Source of the DNA: Chloroflexota bacterium
GTDB taxonomy: Bacteria; Chloroflexota; UBA11872; VXOZ01
Direction of reading: 5' to 3'
Assembly (NCBI GenBank): GCA_965221905.1
Contig: OZ244922.1
Location: 2,560,001 to 2,624,000, forward strand
Length of the DNA stretch: 64,000 nucleotides
Below, one piece after another: positions 6,060-61,705 of this stretch. How positions within the stretch are numbered: the first letter of the stretch is position 1; every line of letters begins with the position of its first letter. Position numbers and translations under genes: made by a program. A model generated the notes under the pieces. The model did not search any database. It was not told where the DNA came from and was given only the letters and a program-made list of their open reading frames with translations.

Positions 6060-6449
6060 CCGTTCGCCCTGAGCTTGTCGAAGGGCCGTTCGCCCTGAGC
6101 TTGTCGAAGGGCCGTTCGCCCTGAGCTTGTCGAAGGGCCGTTCGCCCTGAGCTTGTCGAAGGGCCGTTCGCCCTGAGCTTGTCGAAGGGCCGTTCGCCCT
6201 GAGCTTGTCGAAGGGCCGTTCGCCCTGAGCTTGTCGAAGGGCCGTTCGCCCTGAGCTTGTCGAAGGGCCGTTCGCCCTGAGCTTGTCGAAGGGCCGTTCG
6301 CCCTGAGCTTGTCGAAGGGCCGTTCGCCCTGAGCTTGTCGAAGGGCCGTTCGCCCTGAGCTTGTCGAAGGGCCGTTCGCCCTGAGCTTGTCGAAGGGCCG
6401 TTCGCCCTGAGCTTGTCGAAGGGCCGTTCGCCCTGAGCTTGTCGAAGGG
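6060..6449 (+). repeat. Tandem array of 15 identical 26-bp units CCGTTCGCCCTGAGCTTGTCGAAGGG
   Basis: Counted directly: units start at 6060 and every 26 bp to 6424; no spacers. Confidence 0.97.
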
Positions 6450-6482
6450 CCGTTCATGGTTCGACAAGCTCACCACGAACGG
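6450..6482 (-). repeat. 33-bp hairpin REP, TGG/CCA variant, inverted relative to the 26-mer array
   Basis: Minus strand CCGTTCGTGGTGAGCTTGTCGAACCATGAACGG, identical to 42484-42516. Confidence 0.92.
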
Positions 6483-14001: not shown

Positions 14002-14050
14002 TACGCATGTCTATGCGTACGCACGTCTATGCGTGCGCACATCTTATGCG
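14002..14050. repeat. Three tandem 16-17-bp imperfect palindromes (CGCA-N6/7-TGCG)
   Basis: TACGCATGTCTATGCG / TACGCACGTCTATGCG / TGCGCACATCTTATGCG in a divergent intergenic region. Confidence 0.7.
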
Positions 14051-14154
14051 CGCGCAGCAGAGAGCCGTAACGAACGGCTGTGCGCGGGAGCTACCTCGCT
14101 TTACTTCCTTAGTTTGACCCGAACTCTCCACTGGAACCATTATGATTCAACACA

Positions 14155-15290: not shown

Positions 15291-15388
15291 TTCCGCGCTC
15301 GGTTTCCCGCGCTCAATTCTCTGCGCTCGGATTTCCGTGCTCGGTTCTCCGTGCTCGGTTTTCTGCGCTCCGTTTACTGAGCTGGGTC
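15291..15388 (+). repeat. About 7 degenerate 14-bp tandem units (TTCCGYGCTCGGTT)
   Basis: Units at 15291, 15305, 15319, 15333, 15347, 15361 and 15375. Confidence 0.8.
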
Positions 15389-15542
15389 TAAAGCGCTGCG
15401 TTTCTTGTGCTCTTGGTGATTTGCGCCGCATACAGTTTGGCACAATCAAGCCTCGGCACACTCGTGCCTTGGTACACTCAGGCCTTAACACATCCACGCC
15501 ACTGATACTGCAAAACCGGCAAGGTAGAAAGAGAGAGAGTTT

Positions 15543-40753: not shown

Positions 40754-41887
40754 ATGAAGATCGTAGACCTTAGGCTCCATCCGGTTGCCGTGGCAAGGCA
40801 ATATGCCACGCTGACCTCCGGCGGCCAAGAAGGCCGTCAAAACCCTGACGCCGTACCCGTGGAACTATCCTATTTCTACATCCTCGAATTAGAGACCGAT
40901 TCCGGCATTGTGGGCATTGGCGAGATATCGGACATCGACCCAAAGACGCGTTTCGGCGACGGTTCTTCCATGGAGATCGATAACGTATCTCAGAAGCTGC
41001 GTTCGCAGCTTATGGGGCGTGATCCGACCAACTTCGAGCAACTCGTACGAGATGTAGATTTCGGCGGCCTCGTGAATTGCGCCATCGACACTGCCTGCTA
41101 CGACATCTTGGGAAAGGTCTCCGGAATCTCGGCCACTACTCTGGCCGGCGGCCGCTATCGCGAGAGTGTTTGGGTCTCGTGGGTAGCCTATATTCGCGAG
41201 CCCGAAGCCATGGCGCCGGAGATCGAGGAGAAGCTGGGGCAGGGCTTCGATGCTTTCAAATTCAAGGTAGGGCGCGACATCGACCTGGACGAAGAGCGCA
41301 TCAAGCTCTTCCGACAAATCGGCGGCCCCGATCTGAACCTAAAGCTCGATGCCAATGCGGCCTGGGACGTTGATGAAGCCATCTCATACATCCGCCGCCT
41401 GGAAAAGTACGATATCTCAGGTGTAGAGACGCCCATCGACAAAGTGAATGTCACCGGCATGGCCCAAGTGCGCAAAGCAGTCGGCACGCCAATTCTGGAG
41501 CACGTGAGTACGCCTGAGTACGCCCTCGAGTTGGTGCGCCATGAGGCAGTGGACGTCTTCAACGTTTCAACGGTAGGATGCGGCGGCATCTATCGGGCGA
41601 AGAAGGTAATCGCCCTGGCCGAAGCCACCGGTCTGGAAGTACTCCTCGGCAGCACCGTAGAACTCGGCGTGGGCACCGCCGCGCAACTGGCGCTTGCCGC
41701 TTCCTCGGCGCGTGTGGACTGGCCCTCAGACCTCATCGGGCCGCTCATGTACGTTGACGACGTACTGGTAGAGCCTTGGGAGTGGGAGAACGGGTATCTT
41801 CGCGTTCCATCCGGCGCGGGTATGGGCGTCACGCTCGACTCTCAGAAGCTCCAGTCGCTCTATCACACACTTCCCACATCGTCGTAA
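40754..41887 (+). CDS. Enolase superfamily enzyme (muconate-lactonizing/epimerase type)
   Basis: AGGAGG RBS; FKFKVG, LDANA, VETP, GGIYRA, GMGVTLD. Confidence 0.88.
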   Translation: MKIVDLRLHPVAVARQYATLTSGGQEGRQNPDAVPVELSYFYILELETDSGIVGIGEISDIDPKTRFGDGSSMEIDNVSQKLRSQLMGRDPTNFEQLVRDVDFGGLVNCAIDTACYDILGKVSGISATTLAGGRYRESVWVSWVAYIREPEAMAPEIEEKLGQGFDAFKFKVGRDIDLDEERIKLFRQIGGPDLNLKLDANAAWDVDEAISYIRRLEKYDISGVETPIDKVNVTGMAQVRKAVGTPILEHVSTPEYALELVRHEAVDVFNVSTVGCGGIYRAKKVIALAEATGLEVLLGSTVELGVGTAAQLALAASSARVDWPSDLIGPLMYVDDVLVEPWEWENGYLRVPSGAGMGVTLDSQKLQSLYHTLPTSS

Positions 41888-41969: not shown

Positions 41970-42482
41970 GTCCTGCCCGAAAGAACGCTCGTGGCGAGCC
42001 TAGTGTCTGCTCATCGTGAGCCGAAAGTCCATTCGTAGCGGGCCTAGTGTCCGCTCGTCCTGCCCTATAGTCCGCTCGCGGTGAGCCTAGATTCCGTTCG
42101 TCCTGCCCTGTATTCCGCTCATCGTGAGCCTAGCGTCTGCTCGTCGTGAGCCGAGAGTCCGTTCGTGGTGGGCCTAGTGTCCGCTCGTCCTGCCCTATAG
42201 TCCGCTCGCGGTGAGCCTAGATTCCGTTCGTCCTGCCCTGTATTCCGCTCATCGTGAGCCTAGCGTCCGCTCGTCGTGAGCCGAAAGCCCATTCGTAGCG
42301 GGCCTAGATTCCGCTCGTCCTGCCCTATAGTCCGCTCGCGGTGAGCCTAGATTCCGCTCGTCCTGCCCTATAGTCCGCTCGCGGTGAGCCTAGATTCCGT
42401 TCGTCCTGCCCTGTATTCCGCTCATCGTGAGCCTAGCGTCTGCTCGTCGTGAGCCGAGAGTCCGTTCGTGGTGGGCCTGGAT
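41970..42482 (+). repeat. Satellite array of about 23 degenerate 21-22-bp monomers arranged as a 130-bp higher-order repeat
   Basis: TCCGCTCGTCCTGCCCTATAG recurs at 42050, 42180, 42310 (and 42353 after a 43-bp duplication); monomer consensus TCCGYTCRNNGTGAGCC-N5. Confidence 0.92.
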
Positions 42483-42483
42483 T

Positions 42484-42516
42484 CCGTTCGTGGTGAGCTT
42501 GTCGAACCATGAACGG
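42484..42516 (+). repeat. 33-bp hairpin REP, TGG/CCA variant, capping the satellite
   Basis: CCGTTCGTGGTGAGCTTGTCGAACCATGAACGG; identical to the reverse complement of 6450-6482. Confidence 0.92.
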
Positions 42517-42599
42517 ACTGCTCCTCACCAGGTGGAAGTGAGCGCGAGAGCGGAGTCGTCCCACGTATTGCTACGCGCAGTCGCTCGAACAGACTGCTG

Positions 42600-42680
42600 T
42601 TGACACTCCCGCCTCGCCATTGCTATCCTAAGCAATGCAGGGCAGCACGGCCCCTTGGGCAAGTGCGCTCAGAGCCCTGC
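42600..42680 (+). promoter_or_regulatory. Sigma70 promoter and structured leader of rplU-rpmA
   Basis: TTGACA (42600)-18 bp-TATCCT with upstream TG; GCAGGGC...GCCCTGC leader hairpin. Confidence 0.6.
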
Positions 42681-42727
42681 TCTTTGCATGCTGGCAAAGA
42701 CAAGCATAGAGATTGATGAGGAACATC

Positions 42728-43039
42728 GTGTTCGCAGTCGTCGAAATCGCCGGAAAGCAATATCGCGTCAGTCCCGGAGACCGTATCGCAGTTGAAAGAC
42801 TAGAGGCAGAATCGGGCAGTGAAATCACGCTGGATTCCGTTCTTCTGACCTCCACCGATGATGGCGTTACCATAGGTACACCGGCAATTGCCGGGGCCAA
42901 CATTCGCGCCAACGTGATTGGTGAAGAAAAAGATAGCAAGGTGCTCGTTCTCAAGTACAAACGGAAGAACCGGTACCGGCGCCTTTCAGGCCACCGGCAC
43001 ACATACACTATTCTTGAGATCGCTTCTATCAACACCTAA
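42728..43039 (+). CDS. rplU: 50S ribosomal protein L21
   Basis: FAVVEIAGKQYRV, IGTP, KYKRKNRYRR..GHR. Confidence 0.96.
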   Translation: MFAVVEIAGKQYRVSPGDRIAVERLEAESGSEITLDSVLLTSTDDGVTIGTPAIAGANIRANVIGEEKDSKVLVLKYKRKNRYRRLSGHRHTYTILEIASINT

Positions 43040-43112: not shown

Positions 43113-43370
43113 GTGGCACAGAAAAAAGCCGGCGGCAGCAGCCGTAATGGGCGCGATAGCGCGGGTAGGCGGCTTGGCGTAAAACGTACCGACGGACAGG
43201 TCGTACGCGCGGGAAACATCCTGGTGCGCCAGCGCGGCACGCCGATCAGCCCCGGTGAAAACGTCGGCATAGGTAAAGACCATACGCTCTTTGCCAAAGT
43301 CGACGGCGTCGTCAAGATTGAGACCTTCGGCCGCGATTCCAAACGCGCCATCATCGTTCCTCTCGGCTAA
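43113..43370 (+). CDS. rpmA: 50S ribosomal protein L27
   Basis: [39 protein letters not shown]. Confidence 0.97.
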
Positions 43371-61294: not shown

Positions 61295-61705
61295 ATGATT
61301 GGCCTCGCTCTAGTTCTAGCGCTTGCAGGCTGCAGTTACGGCGGCACCGAGTCTGGCGAGCACAGCGGTAGCGAGTCAGGCGAGCACAACGGTGGCTCTG
61401 AATCCAGTGAGGAGGGTGAGGAGTCTGGCACCCAGCTCAGCTTGAGCGAAACATTCGACGAAGTGCGGGCCGGCGCGCGGCTGATCCTATCATACGACGC
61501 CGACGCCAACGCCTTCACCGGCACCGTAGAAAACACCACCGATGCCACCCTTAAGCAGGTCCGCGTCGAAGTGCATCTCTCGAACGGAACTGAACTCGGC
61601 CCCACCACTCCGTTCGATCTCGCTCCCGGTCAGGCGGCCGCCATCACCTTTCTGGCTACCACTGAACAATTCACATCCTGGAGTGCTCACCTCGAAGTCG
61701 GCTGA
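61295..61705 (+). CDS. Small lipoprotein with Gly/Glu/Ser linker and Ig-like (FxLYD-type) domain
   Basis: LAGC lipobox; ESGEH repeats; FTGTVENTT...VRVEVHL. Confidence 0.65.
   Translation: MIGLALVLALAGCSYGGTESGEHSGSESGEHNGGSESSEEGEESGTQLSLSETFDEVRAGARLILSYDADANAFTGTVENTTDATLKQVRVEVHLSNGTELGPTTPFDLAPGQAAAITFLATTEQFTSWSAHLEVG

What the first reader, a model, noticed from the sequence alone, without database searches (positions are those of the whole stretch)
41970..42516. Bacterial satellite with higher-order repeat structure, apparently grown from a REP hairpin arm
About 23 monomers of 21-22 bp (starts 41984, 42006, 42028, 42050 ... 42461) resemble the left arm (CCGTTCGTGGTGAGC) of the intact 33-bp REP that caps the array at 42484. 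Six diverged monomers form a 130-bp block: the same monomer recurs at 42050, 42180 and 42310, then a 43-bp two-monomer duplication occurs, and the cap lands 130 bp after 42353. Monomer divergence followed by block amplification is the architecture of eukaryotic higher-order satellites; I do not know it as a described REP product. It sits just upstream of the rplU promoter. Inference: a REP-driven amplification process, or a multi-site protein-binding/RNA scaffold.
Basis: partly seen in the sequence, partly recalled or inferred. Interest (0 to 1): 0.78.

Follow-up and report, generated by a model that had tools for sequence, protein, structure and literature searches.

The report
Polar half-hairpin minisatellite upstream of rplU
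A real but non-conserved 0.5-kb stretch of tandem 22-base repeats, grown on the spot from one arm of a small mobile DNA hairpin, is one of many such one-sided arrays and shows how bacteria can build satellite-like DNA.

Summary
Window 41984-42482 has 23 monomers of 21-22 bp followed by an intact 33-nt hairpin element at 42484-42516. Periods of 43, 130 and 173 bp lie on top.

It is not an assembly artefact. Short-read unitigs match exactly, at 1x, 2x and 3x depths that fit the assembled copy numbers.

It is not a conserved rplU element. Two of the 11 congeners whose spacer I read carry it (11 and 14 monomers). Five have a 178-233 bp spacer without it.

It grew in place: two of the six monomer types contain locus-specific flank sequence.

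It is one of about 37 arrays of this element family in the genome. All 16 short-period arrays I inspected are 5'-arm units ending 3' in the element's loop. The 5'-arm pattern occurs in 25 of 98 genomes of the class and the mirror image in 0 of 98. At least 119 loci in other phyla also carry it.

The family is tied to a small GIY-YIG nuclease gene, not to a RAYT.

Best reading: neutral, hypervariable, polar slipped-strand amplification. The cause of the polarity is inferred, not shown.

The scan had already noted a sister array in this window (e1-3769763), and the hairpin/GIY-YIG link in other genomes.

The parts
40754..41887 (+). Upstream gene, enolase-superfamily (MR/MLE) enzyme. The array lies 83 bp beyond its stop.
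   Evidence: Pfam MR_MLE_C E 1.2e-48 and MR_MLE_N E 6.3e-9; ORF list.
41970..41983 (+). Locus-specific flank (GTCCTGCCCGAAAG) that was drawn into the array. It is the source of the 14-nt body of monomer types d and f.
   Evidence: Flank plus first monomer is 28/36 identical to each d+e unit. The same GTCCTGCCC flank stands in the array-less relative G003. The TRF 43-bp row starts at 41970.
41984..42482 (+). 23 tandem monomers of 21-22 bp. Each is the 5' arm of the element plus the first loop bases and about 5-7 nt of filler. Order: x b' c' d e f | a b c d e f | a b c d e | d e f | a b c.
   Evidence: Monomer parse; TRF; self-identity and lag analysis against shuffles.
42114..42243 (+). One complete 130-bp higher-order block (monomers a-f).
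   Evidence: shift-130 identity 0.81.
42310..42395 (+). 43-bp two-monomer (d+e) unit present twice in tandem (42310-42352, 42353-42395).
   Evidence: A short-read unitig spanning the e-to-d junction (42327-42374) is exact, at depth 83 against flanks of 84-100.
42484..42516 (+). Intact 33-nt hairpin element ('cap'): 11-bp stem with one G.T pair and an 11-nt loop.
   Evidence: DNA fold is -8.9 kcal/mol on the + strand and -6.7 on the - strand (A.C mismatch). Stem covariation across family copies. G.T in 93 of 108 full copies.
42600..42629 (+). Promoter-like site for rplU (TTGACA, 18 nt, TATCCT), outside the array.
   Evidence: Consensus scan. The same sequence block is seen in all 12 spacers read, including array-less relatives.
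42713..43039 (+). rplU (ribosomal protein L21). rpmA (L27) follows at 43113-43370.
   Evidence: Pfam Ribosomal_L21p E 1.3e-34; Ribosomal_L27 E 1.1e-35.

Best explanation
The array is a hypervariable, non-coding minisatellite, probably without a function. It arose on the spot beside one copy of a dispersed 33-nt hairpin element.

Proposed steps:
1. A segment of about 22 bp spanning the element's 5' boundary was duplicated in tandem again and again. The segment holds a few flank bases, the 5' arm and the first loop bases. This left the complete element only at the 3' end.
2. The monomers then diverged.
3. Later misaligned events copied several monomers at once: a 43-bp unit that includes locus flank, then a 130-bp six-monomer block. 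This gave the higher-order periodicity.

The driver is misaligned DNA synthesis or repair (slipped-strand or misaligned restart) at this element family. It acts on one side and one strand of the element only.

Shown: in-situ origin, rapid turnover, genome-wide and class-wide polarity, and the link of the family to a small GIY-YIG nuclease gene.

Inferred: what makes the process one-sided. My preferred cause is a strand-specific stall or nick just 5' of the element on single-stranded DNA, followed by misaligned resumption. The published Ssn GIY-YIG nucleases make such a nick.
For: In-situ duplication:
- Monomer types d and f carry the locus's own flank, which is also present in array-less G003.

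Turnover:
- G000 has 23 monomers with a 130-bp block. G005 has 14 (TRF 14.6 copies) with an 88-bp block. G004 has 11 (TRF 11.8 copies).
- Five congeners have 178-233 bp spacers with neither element nor array. Three have a single nested element. One has an unrelated 742-bp spacer.

Reality of the array:
- Exact short-read unitigs at depths of about 1x (78-83), 2x (169) and 3x (247) of the flanks (84-100).
- A second study holds an exact 160-nt contig, 42040-42199.

Generality:
- 37 of 112 TRF arrays in the genome hold the family core.
- 16 of 16 short-period arrays are 5'-arm units ending 3' in the element's loop.

Polarity:
- 5'-arm pairs occur at 6 loci in the genome, the mirror at 0.
- 25 of 98 class genomes have the 5'-arm pattern, 0 of 98 the mirror.
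- At least 119 loci in other phyla hold 129 arrays. 97 of them run on into the loop. There are 0 mirrored pairs in those loci.

The element itself is one-sided:
- Of 248 loop-bearing copies, 96 keep the 5' arm but lack the outer 3' arm. Only 7 show the reverse.

Strand bias:
- The sense strand lies on the C-rich strand of its replication arm in 26 of 36 arrays (p 0.011), and in 14 of 16 short arrays.
- All full single elements split 46:51.
- 32 of 40 loci in nine congeners show the same bias, judged by 20-kb local skew.

Nuclease link:
- 11 of 13 loci of the 101-aa GIY-YIG gene have family copies within about 175 bp on both sides.
- SsnA binds its hairpin as ssDNA on one strand only and cuts a few nt upstream (PMC11893778, sections 8 and 12 read).
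Against: - No experiment or read-level data shows an expansion event or a nick.
- Arrays occur in at least five congeners (G004, G007, G011, G015, G016) where no homologue of the linked nuclease was found. Their 12 other GIY-YIG matches (8 intact small genes, one small pseudogene, one short piece at a contig start, and two in reading frames of over 1000 aa) have no family copy nearby. G004's rplU array changed all the same.
- Most array caps lack the outer 3' arm, so a full hairpin is not needed now. In the cross-phylum set 90 of the 97 caps that reach the loop lack it. In this genome 23 of 31 array-associated copies lack it, and about 14 of those come from one array.
- The strand bias was noticed after the fact. 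It is partly pseudo-replicated among syntenic relatives. It did not reach significance in cross-phylum 8-kb loci (60:44).
- Which strand is 'lagging' is unsettled. GC/TA skew and parS/parB put the origin near 70 kb. The direction of both rRNA operons, the S10 operon, rpoB and rplU, the direction and position of dnaA and dnaN, and the gene-strand minimum all put it near 2.07 Mb.
- Neutrality is inferred from non-conservation only. RNA contigs did not cover the array.
Confidence: 0.7

Rival explanations
1. Nuclease-driven amplification. The family's own small GIY-YIG nuclease nicks single-stranded DNA a few nucleotides 5' of the element on one strand. Misaligned restart or ligation at that nick adds a unit of flank, 5' arm and partial loop. 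When the 3' arm pairs with a distant 5' arm, several monomers are copied at once, which gives the higher-order blocks. This is a sharper version of the best explanation, not exclusive of it.
For: - Absolute polarity and strand specificity: 0 of 98 genomes with the mirror pattern.
- Filler of only 0-8 nt in most short arrays.
- The gene is flanked by family copies in 11 of 13 loci.
- Published Ssn enzymes cut one strand of ssDNA a few nt upstream of their hairpin, and also when the two stem halves are separate molecules (PMC11893778).
- The 3' arm of the cap can pair with the penultimate 5' arm over 14 bp.
Against: - Arrays exist, and changed, in genomes where the gene was not found.
- The protein's nearest solved relatives are UPF0213 proteins, not shown to be the Ssn clade.
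- The published SRM motif hits 0 of 97 copies.
- Most caps lack the outer 3' arm needed for a full hairpin.
- No biochemical data exist for this protein.
Confidence: 0.25
2. A functional array. It would be a phased series of protein-binding sites, or a structured RNA, that tunes transcription of the rplU-rpmA operon or the 3' end of the upstream mRNA.
For: - Position 84 bp upstream of the rplU -35 hexamer.
- The period is close to two helical turns.
- The array as RNA folds better than shuffles (z -3.1), because monomer cores are quasi-palindromic.
Against: - Absent from 9 of the 11 congener spacers read. Monomer number and sequence differ among the three carriers, while the promoter and leader are conserved in all.
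- Sister arrays have periods from 20 to 27 bp and sit in unrelated contexts.
- No Rfam match even at E 1.
- RNA contigs of one metatranscriptome stop at the array edge. This is uninformative because they come from a different strain.
Confidence: 0.06
3. Serial insertion. Each unit is a separate, 3'-truncated copy of the mobile element, inserted at a preferred target just 5' of an existing copy.
For: - 96 of 248 dispersed copies are 3'-truncated.
- Nested copies exist, with an element inside an element's loop.
Against: - Units within an array share the same break point and the same filler.
- In this array the units contain locus-specific flank. This fits copying in place, not import.
Confidence: 0.05
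4. Assembly artefact: the blocks were created by mis-joining repeats.
For: Repeats of this kind are hard to assemble. No single read or contig spanning the array was available to me.
Against: - All array unitigs of run X2 are exact, and their depths track the assembled multiplicities. This includes the unique e-to-d junction.
- A run of another study holds 42040-42199 exactly.
- Two other closed genomes carry the array at the same site with their own structure.
Confidence: 0.03

Closest known systems
REP clusters / BIMEs and REPINs with RAYT transposases (E. coli, Pseudomonas; Di Nocera et al. 2013, PMC3733652, passages read)
   Same: Both are short, high-copy, extragenic imperfect palindromes with stem covariation. 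[quoted passage not shown]
   Different: - Units here are half elements (5' arm only) in direct orientation. They are not whole palindromes in alternating orientation.
- The strict one-sidedness was not mentioned in the passages I read.
- The family is not next to any of the three RAYT-like genes, which are flanked by, or contain, other GTAG-type families.
Ssn GIY-YIG ssDNA nucleases with NTS/SRM hairpin repeats (Chenal et al. 2025, PMC11893778; outline, sections 8, 10, 12, 17 and passages read)
   Same: A single-domain GIY-YIG gene of about 100 aa is flanked by copies of a dispersed hairpin repeat that has an orientation.
   Different: - The published SRM search motif matches 0 of 97 copies.
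- The protein's nearest solved relatives are UPF0213 proteins.
- The word 'tandem' does not occur in that paper's main text.
- Activity of this protein is untested.
Neisseria dRS3/NIME intergenic mosaic arrays (name and layout recalled; only a search listing seen)
   Same: Intergenic arrays built around a short repeat that the Ssn paper ties to a GIY-YIG nuclease.
   Different: As I recall, NIMEs alternate 20-bp dRS3 repeats with 50-150 bp units. Here the unit is 21-22 bp and is a truncated element.
Eukaryotic higher-order-repeat satellites (for example alpha satellite; recalled)
   Same: Diverged monomers (63% alike) sit inside much more similar multi-monomer blocks (85%).
   Different: - Only 3.8 block copies in 0.5 kb.
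- No sign of function.
- A defined seed (the hairpin element) and a polar cap.
- 'Satellites in the prokaryote world' (PMC6749651) does not use 'higher order' or 'hairpin' in its text.
Orientation-dependent instability of hairpin-forming repeats during lagging-strand synthesis and Okazaki-fragment maturation (review PMC12708500, passages read)
   Same: A structure-forming strand and a dependence on replication direction. The review states that structures on nascent lagging-strand flaps can drive expansions, and cites recurrent nicks as drivers.
   Different: - The seed here is a single dispersed element, not a pre-existing microsatellite.
- The strand assignment in this genome is ambiguous.

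Membership tests
REP in the classical sense (RAYT-associated, GTAG/CGTC-tagged) | Short (20-40 bp) imperfect palindrome, high copy number, mostly extragenic | tested here: met
   33-nt hairpin. 295 copies of the 5' arm with the loop start, and 248 loop-bearing copies in 3.52 Mb. The inner stem covaries.
REP in the classical sense (RAYT-associated, GTAG/CGTC-tagged) | A cognate RAYT (Y1 transposase) gene flanked by the repeat | tested here: not met
   There are three PF01797 matches. Two are flanked by other families (F3, F2). The third holds an F4-type copy inside its reading frame. None has this family within 1.5 kb.
REP in the classical sense (RAYT-associated, GTAG/CGTC-tagged) | Terminal GTAG or CGTC tag | tested here: not met
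   Flank profile of 97 full copies shows only a weak T/A preference at -1 to -3 and no tag. The other three families in this genome do carry GTAG (read).
BIME | Regularly spaced REPs in alternating orientation | tested here: not met
   All 23 monomers and the cap are in direct orientation.
Ssn nuclease / SRM hairpin system | Single-domain GIY-YIG protein of about 90-100 aa | tested here: met
   101 aa. Pfam GIY-YIG at residues 3-74, E 4e-19, with no other domain.
Ssn nuclease / SRM hairpin system | Gene flanked by copies of the dispersed hairpin on both sides | tested here: met
   11 of 13 homologue loci have copies on both sides within about 175 bp. One has a copy on one side only, and one has none.
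Ssn nuclease / SRM hairpin system | Protein belongs to the cd10448 clade | tested here: inconclusive
   No CDD tool was on hand. The best solved relatives are 'UPF0213' proteins 1zg2 (E 1.2e-17) and 1ywl. NCBIfam gave no hit.
Ssn nuclease / SRM hairpin system | Repeat matches the published degenerate SRM motif | tested here: not met
   0 of 97 full copies match on either strand.
Ssn nuclease / SRM hairpin system | Strand-specific ssDNA binding, with cleavage a few nt upstream of the hairpin | not testable with these tools
   Needs purified protein and oligonucleotides.
Higher-order-repeat satellite | Blocks of several diverged monomers are more alike than neighbouring monomers | tested here: met
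   Lag-6 identity 0.85 against lag-1 0.63. Shift-130 identity 0.81 against a shuffle maximum of 0.40. In G005 an 88-bp block is 89% matched against 83% for the 22-bp period.
CRISPR array | Direct repeats separated by unique spacers of similar length | tested here: not met
   Units abut with a 21-22 bp period. The 'fillers' are themselves repeated.

The most novel reading that the evidence does not exclude
A very widespread, GIY-YIG-linked hairpin element carries a built-in, strand-specific 'stutter'. A nick or stall on single-stranded DNA just 5' of the element repeatedly re-copies its 5' part. The element therefore seeds one-sided minisatellites de novo. When the single 3' arm pairs with a distant 5' arm, whole blocks are copied, giving higher-order repeats. 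That would be a defined, enzyme-linked way in which satellite DNA is born in bacteria across phyla.
Probability: 0.22. Interest if true: 0.75.

Novelty: new variant of a known kind. Interest (0 to 1): 0.5.

Why it matters
Tandem reiteration of REP-type repeats with their flanks is in print. The scan had already met a sister array in this same window. So the array as such is a new member of a familiar class, and probably harmless.

What I did not find described is the rule behind it. My searches were made, and I read passages of five papers. The rule has three parts:
- Only the 5' part of the element is ever amplified (25 of 98 genomes against 0 of 98 for the mirror image; at least 119 loci in several phyla).
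- The dispersed copies themselves are truncated only at the 3' end (96 against 7).
- In this genus the arrays prefer one replication strand.

Such a clean asymmetry constrains how this element family is copied, which is still unknown. The family is extremely widespread and linked to a nuclease. The asymmetry also gives a natural system for studying how a satellite with higher-order structure is born from a single seed, with three related genomes caught at different stages.

In practice, these arrays are hypervariable markers for telling strains apart, and a known trap for short-read assembly.

Tried and rejected
- Rfam: no family at the array, either at gathering thresholds or at E up to 1.
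- RNA evidence: contigs of metatranscriptome run X15 cover the upstream gene to 41979 and rplU from 42645, but not the array. They carry 21 and 9 differences, so they come from another strain. This says nothing about transcription.
- Run X3 has no contig depth over 42216-42435. That may hint at a shorter allele in that sample, but a gap in contigs proves nothing.
- Arm-only symmetry test (three copies of the 7-mer against its complement): symmetric by construction, so useless.
- Gene direction: arrays are no more tied to the direction of the 5' gene (23:13) than single elements are (45:24). The crude gene calls also contain errors.
- Origin of replication: DnaA-box clustering was indecisive, at most 3 boxes per 600 bp at five places. 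The markers conflict. I therefore state the bias relative to GC skew only.
- Cross-phylum strand test with 8-kb loci: 60:44, not significant.
- An element-level strand count gave 27:4, but about 14 of the counts come from one array, so I do not use it.
- Automated cap test in congeners: 30 of 40. The other ten mostly continue through degenerate units to a later cap, judged by eye. L022, L034 and L041 have no clear cap.
- Nuclease presence against arrays across 98 genomes: 6 have both, 19 arrays only, 6 nuclease only, 67 neither. This is weak and confounded by kinship.
- Literature search for peptide-like words that translations of this element give: 0 papers.
- I built no structure prediction, complex prediction or covariance model. 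None would bear on a non-coding, non-conserved array.
Full report
WHAT IS THERE

The nearest named records with the same repeat arrays are Dehalococcoidia MAGs.

An enolase-superfamily gene ends at 41887. rplU starts at 42713 and is followed by rpmA (Pfam). The 825-bp spacer between the two genes holds the array.

TRF reports one array with nested periods of 43, 130 and 173 bp. Splitting on the arm core gives 23 monomers of 21-22 bp from 41984 to 42482, then an intact 33-nt hairpin element at 42484-42516.

Six monomer types (a-f) make a 130-bp block. The order is x b' c' d e f | a b c d e f | a b c d e | d e f | a b c | cap.

The two-level structure is far beyond chance:
- Self-identity is 0.81 at shift 130, 0.50 at shift 22, and at most 0.40 in 200 shuffles.
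- Neighbouring monomers are 63% alike. Monomers six apart are 85% alike.

IS IT REAL DNA?

All four runs laid are short-read contig sets, so none spans the array. In run X2 every array unitig is exact, and unitig depth follows the assembled multiplicity:
- 78-83 for stretches that occur once, including 42327-42374, which crosses the junction made by the 43-bp duplication.
- 169 for a stretch that occurs twice.
- 247 for one that occurs three times.
- 84-100 for the flanks.

A run of a different study (X4) holds 42040-42199 and both flanks without a difference. Two other closed genomes of the genus carry an array at the same site (below). An artefact is very unlikely.

HOW IT AROSE

The cap is a hairpin with an 11-bp stem and an 11-nt loop. 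Monomers consist of its 5' arm, the first loop bases and about 5-7 further bases.

Types d and f are different. After 7 nt of arm they continue with GTCCTGCCC..., which is the sequence immediately upstream of the whole array. The stretch 'flank + first monomer' is 28/36 identical to each d+e unit. The same flank word stands in relative G003, which has neither element nor array.

So the array grew by copying local DNA in place, not by importing repeats. At least one duplication spanned the array's outer boundary.

COMPARISON WITH RELATIVES

Gene order is kept in all 16 genomes of the genus. I read the spacer in 11 of them:
- G004 has 11 monomers plus cap (TRF 22 bp x 11.8).
- G005 has 14 monomers plus cap, with its own 88-bp four-monomer block.
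- G001, G003, G006, G011 and G012 have spacers of 178-233 bp with no element.
- G007, G008 and G015 have a single nested element.
- G002 has an unrelated 742-bp spacer.

For G009, G010, G013 and G016 the BLAST gaps (36-334 bp) leave no room for such an array. This is inferred from coordinates, not read. For G014 (69% complete) only one short piece matched, so nothing can be said.

The promoter-like site (42600-42629) and the leader behind it are present in all 12 spacers read. The array is therefore young, fast-changing and dispensable for rplU. No Rfam family matches.

THE ARRAY IS ONE OF MANY, AND THEY ARE ALL ONE-SIDED

A TRF run on the whole genome gives 112 arrays with score of at least 100. 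Of these, 37 hold the core of this element family at least twice. A further 22 belong to four other palindromic families.

I printed the 16 arrays of this family with short periods (22-39 bp). In 16 of 16 the units are 5' portions of the element, broken anywhere from position 9 to 26. In each, the element's loop appears only in the last unit at the 3' end. Several have two-level periods (25/50, 23/46, 27/54, 22/44, 26/78, 37/111, 38/211), so higher-order structure is common here.

As a control I wrote two patterns of equal information content:
- Two 5'-arm-plus-loop-start motifs closer together than a whole element would allow.
- The mirror image, built from the loop end plus the 3' arm.

| Where searched | 5'-arm pattern | Mirror pattern |
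|---|---|---|
| Own genome | 6 loci | 0 |
| 98 genomes of the class | 25 genomes | 0 genomes |
| One genome per species, all prokaryotes (three-arm version) | at least 119 loci before the scan stopped at its limit | not searched collection-wide; 0 mirrored pairs within those 119 loci |

The 119 loci come from Dehalococcoidia, Beta-, Gamma- and Alphaproteobacteria, Cyanobacteria, Bacteroidota and Fibrobacteres. They hold 129 arrays, and 97 of these run on into the loop at the 3' end.

The dispersed copies show the same polarity. Of 248 copies with the loop:
- 108 have both outer arms.
- 96 have the 5' arm but lack the outer 3' arm.
- Only 7 show the reverse.

Arrays end more often in such 3'-truncated copies (and 90 of 97). 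The cap at rplU, being complete, is in the minority.

STRAND BIAS

The element is not symmetric. In 93 of 108 full copies one stem position is G.T on the sense strand, hence A.C on the other. The sense-strand hairpin is the more stable, at -8.9 against -6.7 kcal/mol.

Cumulative GC skew is a clean two-armed curve with turning points near 70 kb and 2.07 Mb. The sense strand of the arrays lies on the C-rich strand of its arm as follows:
- 26 of 36 arrays (binomial p 0.011).
- 14 of 16 short arrays (p 0.004).
- All full single elements split 46:51.

In this genome the sign of skew in a 20-kb window predicts the arm in 89% of windows. With that proxy, 32 of 40 array loci from nine congeners show the same bias. 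The count is 24 of 26 where |skew| exceeds 0.02.

Caveats:
- I saw the pattern before testing it.
- Several loci are orthologous between genomes.
- With only 8 kb per locus the cross-phylum set gives 60:44, not significant.

I cannot say which strand this is in replication terms:
- GC and TA skew of the usual polarity, the single perfect match to a recalled parS consensus (313 kb) and parB (563 kb) point to an origin near 70 kb.
- Both rRNA operons, the S10 operon, rpoB, rplU, dnaA (1.80 Mb) and dnaN (2.20 Mb) are all co-directional with replication only if the origin is near 2.07 Mb. The weak gene-strand bias also turns at 2.007 Mb.

Under the second it is the lagging-strand template.

WHICH ENZYME?

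The genome has three RAYT-like genes. Two are flanked by GTAG-type palindromes of other families, and the third holds a copy of another such family inside its reading frame. None is near this family.

A screen for genes bracketed by the family turned up a 101-aa single-domain GIY-YIG protein at 490556-490861. It has inverted full copies about 60-75 bp from each end.

Homologues of this protein occur in 12 of 98 class genomes. In 11 of 13 loci, family copies lie within about 175 bp on both sides, in some as long arrays. The 12 other GIY-YIG matches of five congeners have none nearby.

This is the layout published for the Ssn nucleases. From the paper (sections 8, 10, 12 and 17 read), SsnA:
- binds its hairpin only as single-stranded DNA,
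- binds only one strand,
- can also act when the two stem halves are on separate molecules.

Membership is not shown. The published SRM motif hits 0 of 97 copies, and the nearest solved proteins are annotated UPF0213. Earlier notes of this scan reached the same link in other genomes. Here I tested it on this genome and its class.

HOW IT MOST LIKELY WORKS

Shown:
- Duplication in place.
- Fast gain and loss.
- Later block duplication.
- Strict one-sidedness.

Inferred: misaligned DNA synthesis or repair that starts again from just 5' of the element.

A purely structural slippage model predicts mirror-image arrays for elements in the other orientation. Single elements are equally frequent in both orientations, yet no mirror-image arrays exist. 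Some strand-specific feature of the element must therefore be read.

A strand-specific cut or block just upstream of the 5' arm on single-stranded DNA would explain three things:
- the position of the outer unit boundary (0-8 nt of filler in most short arrays),
- the polarity,
- a dependence on replication direction.

Pairing of the lone 3' arm with a distant 5' arm would explain block-wise copying. It pairs over 14 bp with the penultimate monomer. The review PMC12708500 (passages read) says that structures on lagging-strand flaps can drive expansions, and it cites a study naming recurrent nicks as a driver.

Against an ongoing role of the nuclease:
- Arrays exist, and the rplU array changed, in genomes where the gene was not found.
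- Most caps lack the outer 3' arm.

My estimates are about 0.7 for 'neutral, polar, in-situ slipped amplification' and about 0.2-0.25 for the nuclease-nick version.

WHAT IS KNOWN AND WHAT IS NEW

In print:
- REP clusters reiterated in tandem with flanking DNA (PMC3733652, passages read).
- Bacterial 'satellites' (PMC6749651, passages read).
- Hairpin repeats around GIY-YIG genes (PMC11893778).

I found no description of half-element arrays, of their strict polarity, or of higher-order structure in them.

The scan itself had already reported the perfect 15 x 26-bp sister array at 6060-6482 of this window as tolerated instability of one arm of the same element (e1-3769763).

VERDICT

The array itself is ordinary in function. 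The rule it exemplifies is the interesting part.

Noticed in passing
window 6060-6455 (genome 2566060-2566455): A perfect 15.2 x 26-bp array of the same element family. Each unit is the element minus its last 7 nt. It is followed by an inverted full copy. Already reported by the scan as e1-3769763.
   Followed up: partly
genome 3327899-3328216, 1292958-1293143, 1522544-1522732 (L001-L003): Three RAYT-like (Y1_Tnp) genes, each associated with a different GTAG-type palindromic family. Two of the genes sit next to tandem arrays of their own family. The 263-aa gene in L002 appears to carry in-frame insertions of its palindrome.
   Followed up: partly
whole genome: Replication-origin markers conflict. 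GC/TA skew and parS/parB point to about 70 kb. The direction and position of both rRNA operons, the S10 operon, rpoB, rplU, dnaA and dnaN point to about 2.07 Mb. If the latter is right, this lineage has an inverted GC skew.
   Followed up: partly
whole genome: The dispersed element comes in two forms: a full 33 nt (108 copies) and a form lacking the outer 3' arm (96 copies). The reverse truncation is almost absent (7 copies).
   Followed up: partly
genome 2870947-2871100 cap; L011, L013, L015 spacers: Nested elements: a second copy of the family sits inside the loop of another. This is also seen at the rplU site of G007, G008 and G015.
   Followed up: no
window 42630-42712: The leader between the rplU promoter and the start codon is conserved across all 12 spacers read. 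It has no Rfam match. It may be an undescribed L21 leader.
   Followed up: no
L057, L073, L075, L084: Other small GIY-YIG genes have N-terminal extensions that look like translated repeat elements of other families. None is near the family studied here.
   Followed up: no
L067, L069, L072 (class relatives G062, G058, G064): Homologues of the 101-aa GIY-YIG gene sit inside long same-orientation arrays of the element, spaced about 69-110 bp apart, rather than between one inverted pair.
   Followed up: no
window 42480-42523: The cap's words reach contig depths of about 27,000 in two runs, against about 85-100 for the flanks. The element is therefore hugely abundant across the sampled community. 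Some RNA runs holding parts of the stretch are labelled sponge metagenome.
   Followed up: no
window 14002-14056, 15291-15486, 61341-61393: Further short tandem repeats reported by TRF (periods 14-42 bp). Not examined.
   Followed up: no
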